64,000 bases of DNA from a virus (IMGVR_UViG_3300037312_000757); one strand, 5' to 3'. Positions 24,355-38,185 are shown, counted from the first letter of the stretch. Program-made: numbers and translations. Notes: generated by a model not told the origin, from the sequence alone.

Positions 24355-24475
24355 TGGTGCCTAGAACTGGGATCGAACCAGTGTCCTCGAAACAAACCAA
24401 GAACCACCGCGAGACGCAGGTGCGTACACCTGTACGGGTTCAGGATTTCGTGCTCTACCTCTGAGTTACCTAGGC
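24355..24475 (-). ncRNA. tRNA with ~53-nt anticodon loop
   Basis: Normal acceptor, D and T arms; stem CGAAA/TTTCG encloses long insert. Confidence 0.75.
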
Positions 24476-34756: not shown

Positions 34757-35386
34757 GTGGCCAAAGCCACGCATATCATGACTAGAGAAGAAAAAAGACT
34801 ACGAGCAGTAGCCAATGCTCAAAAGAAAGCCGACGAATTGGCCGCATACCTGGCTAACCCAAAGCTTTGTCGAAACTGTAAAGTTCAGATTGATTTCAAG
34901 AAGCGCAACACAAATGAATATTGCTCAAGTAGGTGCTCTTCTGCAGTCAACAGCTCATTGCGATCAACACGTATCAAGGCAAATAAGAAATCTTTCGAAT
35001 GCATTAATTGCGGAACCTTAAAAGTATATAAGAGTGAAAAACCTGGTAGGTATTGCTCAAATACCTGCCAACATCAATACCAAGAAAAGCAGCAGTTCGC
35101 ATTAGTTGAAGCTGGTAAAGCTAGTAACTCCGGTCAAGTCAAACGATATCTGTTAGCAAAATACGGCAATATTTGTATGGACTCTGAATGCTGCTGGAAT
35201 CAATCGAAGCGCCCAGTAGTAGTTGAGCTCGAACACCAGGATGGTAATTCAGATAACAACACTCTCGAAAATTGCATCTTGTTGTGCCCAAACTGCCACA
35301 GCTTGACGCCAACATACAAGAACAAAAACATGGGAAATGGTAGAGCGTATCGCAGAGCACGATACGCAGAAGGAAAGAGCTACTGA
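34757..35386 (+). CDS. HNH endonuclease with Zn-finger repeats
   Basis: LEHQDGNSDNNTLENCILLCPNCHS; inverted relative to neighbours. Confidence 0.88.
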   Translation: MAKATHIMTREEKRLRAVANAQKKADELAAYLANPKLCRNCKVQIDFKKRNTNEYCSSRCSSAVNSSLRSTRIKANKKSFECINCGTLKVYKSEKPGRYCSNTCQHQYQEKQQFALVEAGKASNSGQVKRYLLAKYGNICMDSECCWNQSKRPVVVELEHQDGNSDNNTLENCILLCPNCHSLTPTYKNKNMGNGRAYRRARYAEGKSY

Positions 35387-35433
35387 AAATGACGATGAGC
35401 AGCCTAGGCTGCTCATCTAAATTCGCAAATCAG

Positions 35434-35518
35434 TGGTGCCGGCTGTGAGACTCGAACTCACGATGGGTTTCCCCGCCGGATTACAAATCCGGTGCAATAG
35501 CCACTATGCGAAACCGGC
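35434..35518 (-). tRNA. tRNA-Thr(TGT) with long variable arm
   Basis: Loop TTTGTAA. Confidence 0.85.
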
Positions 35519-35631
35519 TTACTTGAATACAACAGTTTGTTCGACTGGATAACAACTACTGCCCAGCTCACCAACAAACTTACTACAAATCTATTTAGCA
35601 AATCAACAACGTTCGCTAACTTAGCTTCAAA

Positions 35632-35926
35632 CAGGATGGTTTGTGCATGCAGGTTTGAAAGTTATCGTTCAGTCTACATAGCAGGTTGCCTTATCTTCAC
35701 GTGCTCATGTAATTTTCATTACACAAGGGAAGCCTTATCAACAAGCGTACACCCACTGAACTATCACGTATTCTACGTGCCTATCTTGTTTGTTCTCGTC
35801 TACAAGCTGACGCCACATTCTTCGCTGCGGACGCTATCTAGCCTAGCATGTTTTACCAGTGCGCTTTCGCACACTGCACGCGTACTAGCACAATCATTTA
35901 GATTTGATATTGCTGTACCCATCCAA
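35632..35926 (-). ncRNA. ~295-nt CAGCAA-handle RNA
   Basis: GGATGGGTACAGCAA..AACCATCCTG enclosing several hairpins. Confidence 0.7.
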
Positions 35927-35963
35927 AACGCCAACTATCCAAAAGCCAGCGCTTCGAAACTAA

Positions 35964-36139
35964 CAGGATTGTGGTCTCCCTACACTCTTTACCGGGCCAG
36001 GATCTTCCCGGAGAGCTCGTTTCTACGAGAAATAGCTGCATCTCACACCGCAGGCACTCTTTCGAGTTCGACATCTAAGTCAGCTTACGGATTATGCAGC
36101 ACGCCATAGTTGTAAAGTATGGTTGCTGTAACAATCCTA
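35964..36139 (-). ncRNA. ~175-nt CAGCAA-handle RNA
   Basis: GGATTGTTACAGCAA..CACAATCCTG; starts just after promoter 36148-36175. Confidence 0.75.
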
Positions 36140-36147
36140 AGACTGCA

Positions 36148-36267
36148 ATTCTAACAAATCTACCAAACAAGTCAATAAATTTGTTGAAACTTTTCTACTT
36201 CGGCGCTGCTTTCGCTGCGTCGTCTACATCATATGCCAATTATGCATGCCTGCTGGCAACACGTCAA
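36148..36267 (-). promoter_or_regulatory. two sigma70 promoters
   Basis: TTGACT-N16-TAGAAT and TTGACG-N17-CATAAT. Confidence 0.65.
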
Positions 36268-36370: not shown

Positions 36371-38185
36371 ATGGCTAATGTAAAAAACTTTGGCTTGGAA
36401 GGCGTAGCTTCCTCAGTTCAACTGGGTAAGGGCGGCGCTACTCTGCAAGGTTCAGCTTCAAGCGTGGCGGTGAAGACAGCTGATGGTTCAGCTCTCGTAA
36501 ACCTGCAGGCGGCTGATCCTGTTGCAGCACAAGACGTAGTCACAAAGGGTGTTTTCGACGCTCTGAACGGCGGTACTGTTCAATTGGGTAATCCACAAGA
36601 CGGCACATTGAACGATGGCGCTGTGCAGTTGACAACTTCAACAACAGTCACTACCGCAGTTGACAAGCTGAACGAGATCCTCGGTAAGCTGGTTCCAACC
36701 GCTCCAGCCAACTTCCCTGGCGGTCAAACACTGTCACTGTCAGGCGCAGGCACAGCTCTGCTGGCTAGCGGTTCAGTTGCTGACAACACAGGCGGTGGCA
36801 CGCTTCCAGTTACAGCAGGTAGTTCAGTCACACGTGTGACAGCAGCAACAGTTTCATCAACAACCATTGGTGACAACGGTTCAACAGGCTTCGTTGGTCC
36901 AGGTGACAGTGGCACAGTTCAAGCAGTGGTTAACGGCGCAGTCGTTGACTCACAGGCAATGAGTGGTGGTGTTGCTAAGAGCACAGGTGTTCTGCGTATC
37001 AGCAATGATACAGCGTACCCAGCAGCCACACCAGGTTTCTGGTACAGCTTCCGCGCAAGCATCAGCGGTGCTTCAGCCACACAAGGCTGGAACCGTATTG
37101 CACTGAATGACACAGCATCAGGTGCAACAGCAACAAACGATGTCTACTTCGTTCGTGACAACTTGACAGCTAACCCAGTAGTTTCATCGGGCACAGTTGT
37201 TCAAGGTACAGCTGGCACACTTGCTTATTCATCAAGCGTTCCACACTATAACACAGGCGCAACACTGACAGTTGGCTTCACAGCGACAAACATCGCAGGT
37301 GAAACATACTCATCAGGTAACATCCTGTCAGTAGCAGGCTCAAACGGTATTCTGTCAACTGTTGGTTATGCTGCCGGTTCCGGTGGTTTGTCAAGCCCAG
37401 TTGCTCGCCAAACACTAAGCTTCACAGCATCAGGTCTGAGCATTCCAGTTAGCGGCACTAACGTATTCGCATCAGGTCAGATCACAGCAACAGCAACAAA
37501 CCCAAATGGTTCAGGCAACGCAACATTCGGTCCAAACATCCTGGTGATGAATGGTACAGCTTCAAGCAAACTGTATGAAATGAATGTTCCAGTTACAGTC
37601 GCAGTGAACGGTGGCCCATCCGGCAACTCAACACGTGTGACAATGAGCAACGGTGACAATCCAAGCGACGACAAGTCTTCACTGACTACCGGCGACTGGA
37701 ATTCATCATCAGCTTTGCAAGTATGGGATGCAACAGTGGTTGCAGGTGTTCTGAAGAACGACTTGACAGACTACAGCACTTATCTGCCAGCAGGTCCAAA
37801 CCTGACAACACAAAACGCAACACAGTACGTGACATTCATGTTCCGCCGTACAGCCGTGTCCAAGTTTGACATTGCAGTAACAGGTACATATGCTGGTATG
37901 TGGATTAAGGCAGTTGGTCTGACCGAACAGTACACAGCTTCAGCAAATGGTTGGTACTCAATGTCAGCATCATATGCTGGTTCAGGTTTCCCAGGCGACC
38001 AGGCAGGTGCTAACGGTTCACTGGGTTGCGCATTGGGCGGTACAGCAAGTGGCAGTGGTTCATTCACAGCCACACTGGGCACACTGAGCTCAACAAACGC
38101 GACAAACAACATCATCATGGTACGTTTCAAGCTGACAGCAGGCCAGTCAATCACTGCCCTGAGCTTTGTACCAGCTACACACTAA
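36371..38185 (+). CDS. probable virion structural protein (604 aa, G/S/T-rich)
   Basis: Beta-rich composition, GATAAATA upstream, strong AGGAG RBS. Confidence 0.7.
   Translation: MANVKNFGLEGVASSVQLGKGGATLQGSASSVAVKTADGSALVNLQAADPVAAQDVVTKGVFDALNGGTVQLGNPQDGTLNDGAVQLTTSTTVTTAVDKLNEILGKLVPTAPANFPGGQTLSLSGAGTALLASGSVADNTGGGTLPVTAGSSVTRVTAATVSSTTIGDNGSTGFVGPGDSGTVQAVVNGAVVDSQAMSGGVAKSTGVLRISNDTAYPAATPGFWYSFRASISGASATQGWNRIALNDTASGATATNDVYFVRDNLTANPVVSSGTVVQGTAGTLAYSSSVPHYNTGATLTVGFTATNIAGETYSSGNILSVAGSNGILSTVGYAAGSGGLSSPVARQTLSFTASGLSIPVSGTNVFASGQITATATNPNGSGNATFGPNILVMNGTASSKLYEMNVPVTVAVNGGPSGNSTRVTMSNGDNPSDDKSSLTTGDWNSSSALQVWDATVVAGVLKNDLTDYSTYLPAGPNLTTQNATQYVTFMFRRTAVSKFDIAVTGTYAGMWIKAVGLTEQYTASANGWYSMSASYAGSGFPGDQAGANGSLGCALGGTASGSGSFTATLGTLSSTNATNNIIMVRFKLTAGQSITALSFVPATH

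What the first reader, a model, noticed from the sequence alone, without database searches (positions are those of the whole stretch)
35632..36175. The 'empty' intergenic region holds two large handle RNAs behind their own promoter
What looks like non-coding spacer is a promoter (36148-36175) followed almost immediately by a 175-nt and then a 295-nt RNA, each closed by the CAGCAA helix. Internal hairpins include CAGTGTGC-GAAA-GCGCACTG, CACGTA/TACGTG and TGTAAT/ATTACA. These cargos are not tRNA-like, so the handle is a general module.
Basis: partly seen in the sequence, partly recalled or inferred. Interest (0 to 1): 0.75.

Follow-up and report, generated by a model that had tools for sequence, protein, structure and literature searches.

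The report
Two large phage Y-like RNAs
The "empty" 650-base gap in this 524-kb phage holds two real folded RNA genes (about 172 and 291 nt) that carry the same stem-plus-CAGCAA tag as the phage's small tRNA look-alike RNAs. They are most likely extra-large partner RNAs of the phage's Ro60-shaped protein, an RNA-protein system I found in no paper or Rfam family.

Summary
On the minus strand, a sigma-70-type promoter (TTGACT-16-TAGAAT, 36175-36148) is followed by two RNAs, 36137-35966 (172 nt) and 35924-35634 (291 nt). Each is closed by a 6-7 bp GGAUNN/NNAUCC helix with an unpaired NUA-CAGCAA beside it. Next come tRNA-Thr(UGU) and a terminator.

A related metagenomic phage (L379) keeps the same promoter hexamers, both RNAs (195 and 281 nt), the tRNA-Thr and the terminator. 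Helices are kept through compensatory changes, and no plus-strand ORF is there. The window's 190-aa plus-strand ORF has antisense-like codon usage, so it is not a gene.

The handle travels with DUF2828 proteins. 74 of 80 viral loci with this gene carry handle RNAs, often as a triad (~160 nt, ~180-280 nt, ~55 nt) just upstream of it. This phage encodes one about 100 kb away, and its model matches Ro60 structures best. A model of the large-RNA core from those loci matches RNA2 weakly, and both RNAs in L379.

Best reading (0.6): these are Y-RNA-like partner RNAs with large scaffold cargos. Binding, RNA ends and cargo function are untested. This scan noted the handle family before in many genomes and similar tandem pairs in two. 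Rfam has no match.

The parts
36148..36175 (-). Sigma-70-type promoter: TTGACT (36175-36170), 16-nt spacer, TG-TAGAAT (36153-36148). The predicted start is about 3 nt before the RNA1 handle.
   Evidence: One search gives 10 of 12 consensus matches with an extended -10. Identical hexamers and spacing stand upstream of the RNA1 homolog in L379 (2088-2061). The promoter class is about 7-fold enriched in the genome and strand-biased in the window.
35965..36138 (-). RNA1, 172 nt (174 with the A-U pair). Closing helix (A)GGAUUG/CAAUCC(U), then unpaired UUA-CAGCAA. The cargo is a P2 hairpin, a 64-nt three-helix core (36099-36036), a CUCG-UAGAAA-CGAG hairpin and a CCGGG/CCCGG hairpin.
   Evidence: See (z = -2.39). 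The homolog at L379:2007-1813 has 8 of 34 predicted pairs with compensatory changes, for example CUGCAU/AUGCAG versus CUCUAU/AUAGAG and CCGGG/CCCGG versus GCUAU/AUAGC.
36036..36099 (-). Conserved core domain of RNA1 (21 base pairs, one branch point).
   Evidence: Model R3 finds only this site in the window, in the own genome and in about 700 kb of DUF2828 loci. The domain is therefore lineage-specific.
35634..35924 (-). RNA2, 291 nt. Closing helix GGAUGG/CCAUCC, then unpaired GUA-CAGCAA. The cargo has at least six hairpins (GAAA, GAA/UAGAAUA and GAAA loops), repeated GAUAG and GAUAAGG linkers, and a long-range helix between its 5' and 3' parts.
   Evidence: See (z = -4.27; 0 of 200 shuffles fold as well). 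The homolog at L379:1774-1494 has 14 of 43 predicted pairs with compensatory changes; some lie in poorly aligned stretches and may not be real.
35707..35785 (-). Core of RNA2 that resembles the large handle RNAs found next to DUF2828 genes (UAG-GC-hairpin with UAGAAUA loop-GAUAGU...).
   Evidence: This is the best hit of model R2 in the whole window, both strands, filters off: 23.9 bits, E about 0.008, full model length.
35434..35518 (-). tRNA-Thr(UGU), the last gene of the same apparent transcription unit.
   Evidence: A tRNA-Thr(UGU) stands at the same place in L379 (1297-1222).
35394..35417 (-). Intrinsic-terminator-like hairpin (10 pairs) with a U-rich tail, closing the unit.
   Evidence: The counterpart in L379 is at 1209-1180.

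Best explanation
The gap is a small RNA operon: a host-type promoter, RNA1, RNA2, tRNA-Thr(UGU) and a terminator.

RNA1 and RNA2 are stable structured non-coding RNAs whose 5' and 3' ends pair in a short helix. Together with the adjacent unpaired NUA-CAGCAA, this helix forms a conserved 'handle'. I read the handle as the docking site for the phage's DUF2828/DUF7788 protein, a Ro60-fold ring with a vWA domain. On this reading the two RNAs are oversized Y-RNA-like partner RNAs. The large multi-hairpin cargo would be the variable effector or scaffold module, as in Ro60/Y-RNA particles, where the non-handle part recruits another factor such as PNPase.

Shown here:
- the anatomy of the RNAs;
- that they are conserved and non-coding;
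- that the handle family is real and covaries;
- that handle RNAs and DUF2828 genes co-occur, tested in both directions;
- that the predicted fold of the protein is Ro60-like.

Inferred, not shown:
- physical binding of the handle by the protein;
- processing of the transcript to ends at the handle;
- what the large cargos bind or do.
For: 1. Anatomy and statistics of the handle and promoter.

2. A conserved cassette in L379 with compensatory changes in RNA1 and RNA2.

3. The plus-strand ORF is not coding.

4. The genome encodes a 467-aa DUF2828 + DUF7788 protein. Its AlphaFold model (pLDDT 86, pTM 0.85) has as best PDB matches:
- Ro60 (2i91, 1yvr, 1yvp): E 5e-9 to 9e-8, TM 0.63-0.66 over the full length;
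- Thermus phage phiLo Ro60 (9kop, 9l5y);
- D. radiodurans Rsr, with a weaker superposition (TM 0.36).

5. In 80 viral loci chosen only by the protein:
- a strict 7-bp handle scan finds 173 hits on the gene strand against 30 on the other strand;
- 74 of the 80 loci have at least one hit;
- most gene-strand hits lie directly before or after the gene.

6. The reverse test: of 4 records found only by the handle sequence, 3 encode the protein, next to the handle where I checked its position (two records). The fourth is a half-complete fragment.

7. Large handle RNAs of about 140-170 and 175-280 nt are a recurrent pair just upstream of the gene.

8. L147 has a promoter, then a large handle RNA, then the DUF2828 gene.

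9. A model of the core of those RNAs has its best window hit inside RNA2 (E about 0.008). Its two best L379 hits fall inside the RNA1 and RNA2 homologs (E 0.0035 and 0.0053).

10. Published Ro60 partners have the same logic: a 5'-3' stem flanking a bulge with a short conserved motif (GNCGAAN0-1G / CGAA), and are encoded near the protein gene (PMC4201824, PMC12135203).
Against: - No binding data exist for any DUF2828 protein or CAGCAA RNA in the library I searched.
- Pfam's TROVE model does not match anything in this genome, so the protein is Ro60-like by predicted fold only (12-17% identity).
- The motif is CAGCAA, not the Y-RNA CGAA motif.
- The RNAs are 1.5 to 3 times longer than known Y RNAs.
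- In this genome the RNAs lie about 100 kb from the protein gene.
- The similarity of RNA2 to the large RNAs at DUF2828 loci is weak: 24 bits against 80-94 bits for true members. nhmmer finds nothing. The RNA1 core has no match there at all.
- Only one close homolog was available for covariation.
Confidence: 0.6

Rival explanations
1. The handle is a processing or stability signal and not a protein dock for DUF2828. On this view the terminal helix plus CAGCAA is a punctuation mark that a host or phage nuclease uses to cut stable RNAs out of long tRNA-cluster transcripts. The large RNAs would then act on their own, for example as decoys, sponges or ribozymes.
For: - All copies lie on the tRNA strand, tightly packed among tRNAs.
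- The flanks are conserved: U-rich 5', (U/A)GUU 3'.
- The spacer sequences after both RNAs are conserved in L379.
- In L379 about 50 nt separate the promoter from the handle, so 5' trimming is needed if the ends sit at the handle.
- T4 also makes stable RNAs of unknown function from its tRNA cluster (own knowledge).
Against: This view does not explain why the handle tracks one particular Ro60-fold protein in both directions of the test. It also does not explain why handle RNAs are usually the immediate neighbours of that gene. The two readings do not exclude each other.
Confidence: 0.17
2. The handle is a ligation or circularisation signal. The paired ends would be cut and joined, as at bulge-helix-bulge sites of permuted tRNA genes, to give circular RNAs. 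For the tRNA-like cargos this would give re-ordered functional tRNAs.
For: Three other handle RNAs in the window carry tRNA parts in permuted order: T arm, sealed acceptor stem, D arm. The handle brings the two ends together.
Against: - There is no RtcB in the genome.
- The acceptor stems of the tRNA-like cargos are closed by loops, and I could not assemble a clean 7-nt anticodon loop across the junction from the sequences (reading of the sequences).
- RNA1 and RNA2 have no tRNA parts.
- No splicing-type endonuclease was looked for.
Confidence: 0.05
3. RNA1 and RNA2 are a long cis-acting leader that controls the downstream tRNA-Thr(UGU), and are not separate RNAs.
For: The tRNA-Thr and the terminator are kept downstream in both phages. 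Other notes of this scan report leader-type control in this tRNA region (not tested by me).
Against: Both elements have the closed-end architecture of the free-standing family. Homologous large RNAs in other phages precede a protein gene or a minimal hairpin, not tRNA-Thr. L379 has a further promoter-like site between RNA2 and the tRNA.
Confidence: 0.05
4. The plus-strand ORF 35537-36109 (190 aa) is the real product, and the hairpins are incidental.
For: The frame is open for 190 codons. It has one weak Pfam hit, DUF7729 (E 4e-4, 20.5 bits, below the 25-bit cut-off).
Against: - The codon score equals the antisense mean and lies far below coding windows.
- The frame is not open in L379.
- Substitutions between the two phages preserve base pairs, not a reading frame.
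- The start codon is TTG, and the translation does not read like a typical protein.
Confidence: 0.02

Closest known systems
Ro60 (Rsr) with Y RNAs: bacterial and mycobacteriophage YrlA/YrlB and D. radiodurans Yrn1 (Chen et al. 2014, PMC4201824)
   Same: - The protein partner is a ring of HEAT-like repeats plus a vWA domain (predicted fold).
- The RNA has a stem made of its own 5' and 3' ends, with a short conserved motif beside it and a variable second module.
- Some family members mimic tRNA with a sealed acceptor stem.
- In most genomes the RNAs are encoded next to the protein gene.
   Different: - The protein is DUF2828/DUF7788, not a Pfam TROVE match.
- The motif is NUA-CAGCAA, not GNCGAAN0-1G.
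- No Rfam family matches.
- RNA1 and RNA2 are 172 and 291 nt against 80-130 nt, with non-tRNA cargos.
- In this phage they are unlinked from the protein gene and sit in a tRNA island behind their own promoter.
Thermus phage phiLo phiRo60 with Yrl1/Yrl2 (PMC12135203; PDB 9KOP, 9L5Y)
   Same: A phage-encoded Ro60-fold protein with two Y-like RNAs encoded in tandem upstream of it. The RNAs bind the protein and scaffold host PNPase in vitro. 9KOP and 9L5Y are among the top structural matches of this phage's protein.
   Different: Yrl1 and Yrl2 carry the CGAA motif and were defined next to a canonical Ro60. Here the motif, the protein family and the RNA sizes all differ, and no biochemistry exists.
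Large handle RNAs next to DUF2828 genes in uncultured phages
   Same: - The same handle.
- The same tandem layout of two large RNAs.
- A shared core module: hairpins with UAGAA-type loops separated by GAUAG. Model R2 matches RNA2 and both L379 homologs.
- Position inside tRNA clusters on the tRNA strand.
   Different: - The match is weak, 21-24 bits against 80-94 bits.
- The RNA1 core domain is absent from those loci.
- I see no counterpart of the first-position (~160 nt) class signature (UGGAG...UUGAAGG) in RNA1.
- No ~55-nt minimal RNA follows.
- The protein gene is about 100 kb away.
Stable 'species 1 and 2' RNAs (rnaC, rnaD) of the phage T4 tRNA cluster (own knowledge, not checked here)
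   Same: Stable non-tRNA RNAs of unknown function, co-transcribed and processed with phage tRNAs.
   Different: To my knowledge T4 has no DUF2828 gene and no CAGCAA handle. No sequence comparison was made.
Large ornate phage-associated RNAs GOLLD and ROOL (Rfam; own knowledge that they lie near tRNAs in prophages)
   Same: Large structured RNAs encoded beside tRNA genes in phage DNA.
   Different: No Rfam match, even at E up to 10. RNA1 and RNA2 are much smaller, and their defining feature is the terminal handle.

Membership tests
CAGCAA-handle RNA family (defined in this scan, not in Rfam) | Terminal helix of 6-7 bp formed by the 5' and 3' ends, GGA... / ...UCC, with inner pairs that covary | tested here: met
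   RNA1 has (A)GGAUUG/CAAUCC(U) and RNA2 has GGAUGG/CCAUCC. Nine window copies show five compensating variants. A profile of 135 unique elements from other phages gives the same consensus.
CAGCAA-handle RNA family (defined in this scan, not in Rfam) | Three nucleotides (mostly NUA or NUU), then invariant CAGCAA, directly 3' of the 5' strand | tested here: met
   RNA1 has UUA-CAGCAA and RNA2 has GUA-CAGCAA. Both are kept in the L379 homologs.
CAGCAA-handle RNA family (defined in this scan, not in Rfam) | The genome encodes a DUF2828/DUF7788 protein | tested here: met
   The gene is at G000:C1:281171-282574, 467 aa. Pfam gives DUF7788 at 1.2e-44 and DUF2828 at 4.2e-28.
CAGCAA-handle RNA family (defined in this scan, not in Rfam) | Lies among tRNA genes on the tRNA strand | tested here: met
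   There are 52 tRNAs on the minus strand of the window. tRNA-Thr follows RNA2 by 115 nt.
Y RNA (partner of Ro60/Rsr) | A Ro60/TROVE protein is encoded in the genome | tested here: inconclusive
   Pfam TROVE gives no match. The DUF2828 protein model does match Ro60 structures first (E 5e-9, TM 0.64).
Y RNA (partner of Ro60/Rsr) | Conserved Ro-binding module with the GNCGAAN0-1G / CGAA motif (PMC4201824, PMC12135203) | tested here: not met
   The motif beside the stem is CAGCAA in all copies. No Rfam Y-RNA-type family matches.
Y RNA (partner of Ro60/Rsr) | Length about 80-130 nt | tested here: not met
   The lengths are 172 and 291 nt.
Y RNA (partner of Ro60/Rsr) | Bound by the Ro60-type protein in vivo or in vitro | not testable with these tools
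   Only gene-RNA co-occurrence is available.
Large (~175-280 nt) handle RNAs at DUF2828 loci | Core of three hairpins with UAGAA-type loops separated by GAUAG linkers | tested here: inconclusive
   R2 gives RNA2 23.9 bits, E about 0.008, full length. RNA1 gets only a partial hit at E 2.6. The L379 homologs of both score 20-21 bits. True members score 80-94 bits.
Large (~175-280 nt) handle RNAs at DUF2828 loci | 3' domain with an ACUGAACCGAUAUAC-type box inside a covarying helix, plus a second helix that would make a pseudoknot | tested here: inconclusive
   RNA2 and its L379 homolog keep AACGAUAAC. I could not place the two helices in RNA2. The helices in the other phages were read by eye only.
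tRNA or permuted tRNA mimic | T arm, D arm and acceptor stem | tested here: not met
   ARAGORN and Rfam find no tRNA between 35634 and 36137. In contrast, three other handle RNAs of the window do carry such parts.
Protein-coding gene (plus-strand ORF 35537-36109) | Coding-like codon usage and a frame kept open in relatives | tested here: not met
   The codon score is -0.164 against a coding mean of +0.237. The longest ORF on that strand in L379 is 66 aa.

The most novel reading that the evidence does not exclude
The stem-plus-CAGCAA handle is a natural modular tag. One viral Ro60-like ring is loaded with interchangeable RNA adaptors: tRNA mimics, bare hairpins and these large multi-hairpin scaffolds. 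The large adaptors would recruit a second machine, for example a host exoribonuclease or a tRNA repair or modification enzyme, to the phage's tRNA pool. That would make this a virus-wide, undescribed counterpart of the Ro60/Y-RNA/PNPase particle, also present in laboratory phages such as the Felix O1 group.
Probability: 0.3. Interest if true: 0.85.

Novelty: new variant of a known kind. Interest (0 to 1): 0.66.

Why it matters
Ro60/Y-RNA particles are known from animals, some bacteria and a few phages, but their jobs in microbes are still poorly understood. Here a different protein family with the same predicted fold is found in at least 710 cultured phage records (Felixounavirus, T4-like, Listeria, Staphylococcus and mycobacteriophages) and in hundreds of viral contigs. 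It is paired with its own RNA tag, and the tag sits on cargos from 30 to about 280 nt.

The two RNAs examined here show that the tag is not restricted to tRNA mimics, and that large, conserved, multi-domain RNAs belong to the system. If the binding is real, this gives a testable function to a large set of "hypothetical" phage genes and to unannotated gaps in phage tRNA clusters. It also offers a compact natural handle for loading chosen RNAs onto a protein ring.

Tried and rejected
1. Canonical Ro60 and RtcB were sought in the genome and not found. This weakens a classical Rsr/Rtc reading and the circularisation idea.

2. Rfam gave only tRNAs, at gathering scores on the window and on ten related loci, and at E up to 10 on the region. 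A Lysine-riboswitch hit at E 0.04 spans the promoter and is spurious.

3. blastn of the region against 50,697 phage records matched only the tRNA-Thr. blastn of a large-RNA pair from L197 found nothing.

4. Four collection scans with short-motif patterns returned mostly chance hits. Of these, only one search was useful, because it gave L147; the later core-pattern scan was also useful.

5. The 604-aa neighbour's relatives in viral contigs (38-44% identity, L003-L006) are not syntenic.

6. Whole-record searches of five large phages found handle RNAs with tRNA-like and minimal cargos, but no relative of RNA1 or RNA2.

7. nhmmer with the large-RNA alignment found nothing in the window. RNAalifold on the mixed 18-sequence alignment returned no structure, because the helices were out of register.

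8. Model R1, built from the minimal hairpins, cannot bridge large cargos. I used an explicit stem-plus-motif scan instead.

9. The RNA1 core model R3 has no hit outside its own lineage.

I therefore could not fetch the contigs of about 35 closer relatives (60-75% identical neighbour protein).

Full report
**Setting.** The window is part of a complete 523,836-bp virus record with terminal repeats. It carries 52 tRNA genes, all on the minus strand. The finding concerns the 650-base stretch between tRNA-Thr(UGU) (35518-35434) and a divergent 604-aa gene that starts at 36371.

**What is in the sequence.** Read on the minus strand, the region holds the following:
- A sigma-70-type promoter: TTGACT, 16 nt, TG-TAGAAT (36175-36148).
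- Three bases after the predicted start, the first RNA: (A)GGAUUG, UUA, CAGCAA ... CAAUCC(U), at 36137-35966, 172 nt.
- Forty-one bases further, the second RNA: GGAUGG, GUA, CAGCAA ... CCAUCC, at 35924-35634, 291 nt.
- Then 115 nt of spacer, tRNA-Thr, and a 10-bp terminator hairpin with a U tail (35417-35394).

One correction is needed: CAGCAA is not the helix. It is the invariant unpaired stretch beside a closing helix whose inner pairs covary.

**The handle family in this genome.**
- Nine minus-strand elements share ...GGAxxx-NUA-CAGCAA...xxxUCC-(U/A)GU, with stems GGAUGC/GCAUCC, GGAUGG/CCAUCC, GGAUCC/GGAUCC, GGAUUG/CAAUCC and GGAAGC/GCUUCC.
- A loose whole-genome scan gave 46 stem-plus-CAGCAA candidates. 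Only these nine have the GGA...UCC form, and all lie in the tRNA/RNA islands.
- Cargos are of three kinds: four bare hairpins (48-59 nt); three bodies with T arm, loop-sealed acceptor stem and D arm in permuted order (118-129 nt); and the two large RNAs.

**Are the two large RNAs real?**
- Both fold better than shuffled controls: z = -2.39 for RNA1, and z = -4.27 for RNA2 with 0 of 200 shuffles as stable.
- The decisive evidence is comparative. The neighbouring 604-aa protein has many relatives at 60-75% identity. One of them, on a JGI metagenome contig, could be fetched (L379, 71% identity).
- Upstream of that gene, on the opposite strand, L379 has the same cassette: TTGACT-16-TAGAAT (2088-2061), an RNA1 homolog (2007-1813, 195 nt), an RNA2 homolog (1774-1494, 281 nt), tRNA-Thr(UGU) (1297-1222) and a terminator.
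- Blocks of sequence are conserved, and helices differ by paired changes. In RNA1, CUGCAU/AUGCAG becomes CUCUAU/AUAGAG, CCGGG/CCCGG becomes GCUAU/AUAGC, and CUCG-UAGAAA-CGAG becomes GCAG-UAGAAA-UUGC. This gives 8 of 34 predicted pairs with changes on both sides.
- In RNA2, 14 of 43 predicted pairs change on both sides. They include a 10-bp hairpin whose GNRA loop changes from GAAA to GUAA. Some of these pairs lie in poorly aligned stretches and should be treated with caution.
- With one homolog this is good support, not proof.

**The plus-strand ORF.** The 190-codon frame 35537-36109 is not a gene.
- It has the codon usage of antisense DNA: score -0.164, against an antisense mean of -0.166 and a 5th percentile of -0.049 for real coding windows.
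- It is not open in L379, where the longest ORF is 66 aa.
- Its only family hit is below cut-off.

**The promoter.** TTGACN-16/17-TANAAT occurs 26 times in the genome against 2-5 in first-order Markov simulations. The six copies in the window are all on the RNA strand. They include the sites before the main tRNA array and before the second RNA island. Identical hexamers and spacing in L379 support function. In L379 the promoter lies about 50 nt from the handle, so if the mature RNA starts at the handle it must be trimmed there.

**The likely partner.**
- I first thought of Y RNAs, but found no TROVE protein and no RtcB.
- Earlier notes of this scan pointed to DUF2828, and I tested that lead. 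The genome has a 467-aa DUF2828 + DUF7788 protein at C1:281171-282574.
- Its AlphaFold model (pLDDT 86, pTM 0.85) matches Ro60 structures first: 2i91, 1yvr and 1yvp at E 5e-9 to 9e-8 and TM 0.63-0.66 over the whole chain. Thermus phage phiLo Ro60 and Deinococcus Rsr (weaker superposition) are also among the top hits. Isolated vWA domains follow far behind.
- A scan of viral contigs found at least 562 relatives. In the best 80 loci, a strict scan (7-bp stem, NNN, CAGCAA, complementary 3' strand, then G) found 173 elements on the gene strand against 30 on the other strand. They occurred in 74 of the 80 loci. Most gene-strand hits lie directly upstream or downstream of the gene.
- The consensus of 135 unique elements is: U-rich flank, A-G-G-(A/U)-U-N-N, N-U-(A/U), CAGCAA ... 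N-N-A-(U/A)-C-C-U-G-U-U. The G after the stem was imposed by my filter.
- The reverse test also holds. Of four records found only by the handle sequence, three encode the protein, next to the handle where I checked its position (two records). The fourth is a 51%-complete fragment.
- The protein is in 710 cultured phage records. Unannotated handle RNAs lie beside it in Cronobacter phage S13 and in Felixounavirus BPS17W1, the latter with GACCNN stems.

**Large handle RNAs elsewhere.**
- At many DUF2828 loci the gene is preceded by a triad: an RNA of about 140-170 nt, one of about 175-280 nt, and a minimal one of about 55 nt, 10-15 nt apart, inside tRNA clusters.
- A motif from the second class (UAG-GC-NN-GUAGAAUAC-NN-GAUAGU) hit 17 viral stretches. 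Fifteen of them lie inside a handle RNA that my scan finds, and most of those have the same neighbours.
- L147 shows a promoter, then one such RNA, then the gene.
- These RNAs have well-supported helices: 14 of 32 pairs are compensatory in six sequences. They contain three hairpins with UAGAA-type loops separated by GAUAG.

**Relation of RNA1 and RNA2 to those RNAs.**
- A covariance model of that core (R2) has its best hit in the whole window inside RNA2: 35785-35707, 23.9 bits, E about 0.008, full length, filters off. RNA1 gets only a partial hit.
- In L379 the two best hits fall in the RNA1 and RNA2 homologs (E 0.0035 and 0.0053).
- The model is specific. It gave no stray hit at E up to 0.1 in 474 kb, and true members score 80-94 bits. 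The relationship is therefore distant: shared modules and not clear orthology.
- nhmmer sees nothing.
- The 64-nt core of RNA1 (model R3) has no match in about 700 kb of DUF2828 loci or elsewhere in the own genome.
- My reading is that both are lineage-specific, enlarged relatives of the second-class RNAs, moved away from the protein gene into the tRNA island.

**Mechanism.** By analogy with Ro60/Y RNA, the stem plus bulged motif would dock on the ring, and the other module would recruit or gate a second factor, such as PNPase in Deinococcus and in phage phiLo (PMC4201824, PMC12135203). On this view the handle binds the DUF2828 ring and the large cargos act as scaffolds. The G-UAGAAUA-C loops have the outline of T-loop motifs (U at position 1, purine at 4, A at 5). 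This is my inference only. It would fit a compact tertiary fold or a tRNA-elbow-like surface. None of this is shown.

**Comparison with what is known.** In logic the system works like Ro60/Y RNA. It fails the membership tests of that family on motif, size, Pfam protein family and Rfam match. I therefore file it as a new variant and not as a member. The library holds no functional paper on DUF2828. A jumbo-phage survey mentions only that a few phages have a ROT/TROVE protein with a tRNA-like partner (PMC7824862).

**Earlier work of this scan.** The handle family has been noted in many genomes (78 notes in at least 70 genomes). Tandem long handle RNAs of 197-199 and 284 nt were noted in two other genomes. 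Those sizes resemble L379's 195 and 281 nt.

**Limits.**
- There is one close homolog only.
- E-values of my models are rough.
- There are no expression or binding data.

Noticed in passing
window 24358-24475 (-): Rfam calls a tRNA of 118 nt here (42.4 bits) that ARAGORN does not report. It is probably a tRNA with an insertion of about 45 nt.
   Followed up: no
window 42412-42284, 41971-41843, 28227-28110 (-): Three handle RNAs carry tRNA parts in permuted order: variable region, T arm, acceptor stem sealed by a loop, then D arm. I could not build clean 7-nt anticodon loops across the handle.
   Followed up: partly
whole genome; window 42257, 36175, 33452, 15897, 14256, 7316 (-): The promoter class TTGACN-16/17-TANAAT occurs 26 times against 2-5 expected. 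All six window copies are on the tRNA/RNA strand, several directly before RNA genes. This suggests that host sigma-70 drives the RNA genes of this phage.
   Followed up: partly
window 34757-35386 (+): A 209-aa ORF just beyond the cassette's terminator has weak HNH endonuclease hits (E 0.004-0.008, below cut-off). It may be a homing-type nuclease beside the tRNA region.
   Followed up: no
L147, L153, L176, L197, L202 (3' part of the ~175-280 nt handle RNAs): By eye, two covarying helices cross, which would make a pseudoknot. One is GACUGAU/AUUAGUC versus GGUCUAA/UUAGACC versus GCUUGG/CCAAGC. The other is GGAAC/GUUCC versus GGGGC/GUCCC versus GAGAC/GUCUC. They surround a conserved ACUGAACCGAUAUACUGGGGAU box.
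   Followed up: partly
L338 (Cronobacter phage S13) 4390-4781; L339 (Salmonella phage BPS17W1) 4220-5432: In S13, two odd annotated tRNAs (tRNA-Ser of 121 nt and tRNA-OTHER of 113 nt) and an unannotated 133-nt handle RNA follow the DUF2828 gene. In the Felixounavirus, four unannotated handle RNAs with GACCNN/NNGGUC stems follow it. Both are culturable systems for testing the idea.
   Followed up: partly
L379 about 1890-1872 (-), inside the RNA1 homolog: The homolog carries an extra CUCG-CGAA-CGAG hairpin that is absent from the window's RNA1. This accounts for most of the 195 versus 172-174 nt length difference.
   Followed up: no
protein list: The 604-aa neighbour protein has distant relatives (41-47% identity) in Caulobacter and Brevundimonas jumbo phages (Ccr2, Kikimora, Domovoi, Bajun). 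This hints at an alphaproteobacterial host range for the wider group.
   Followed up: no
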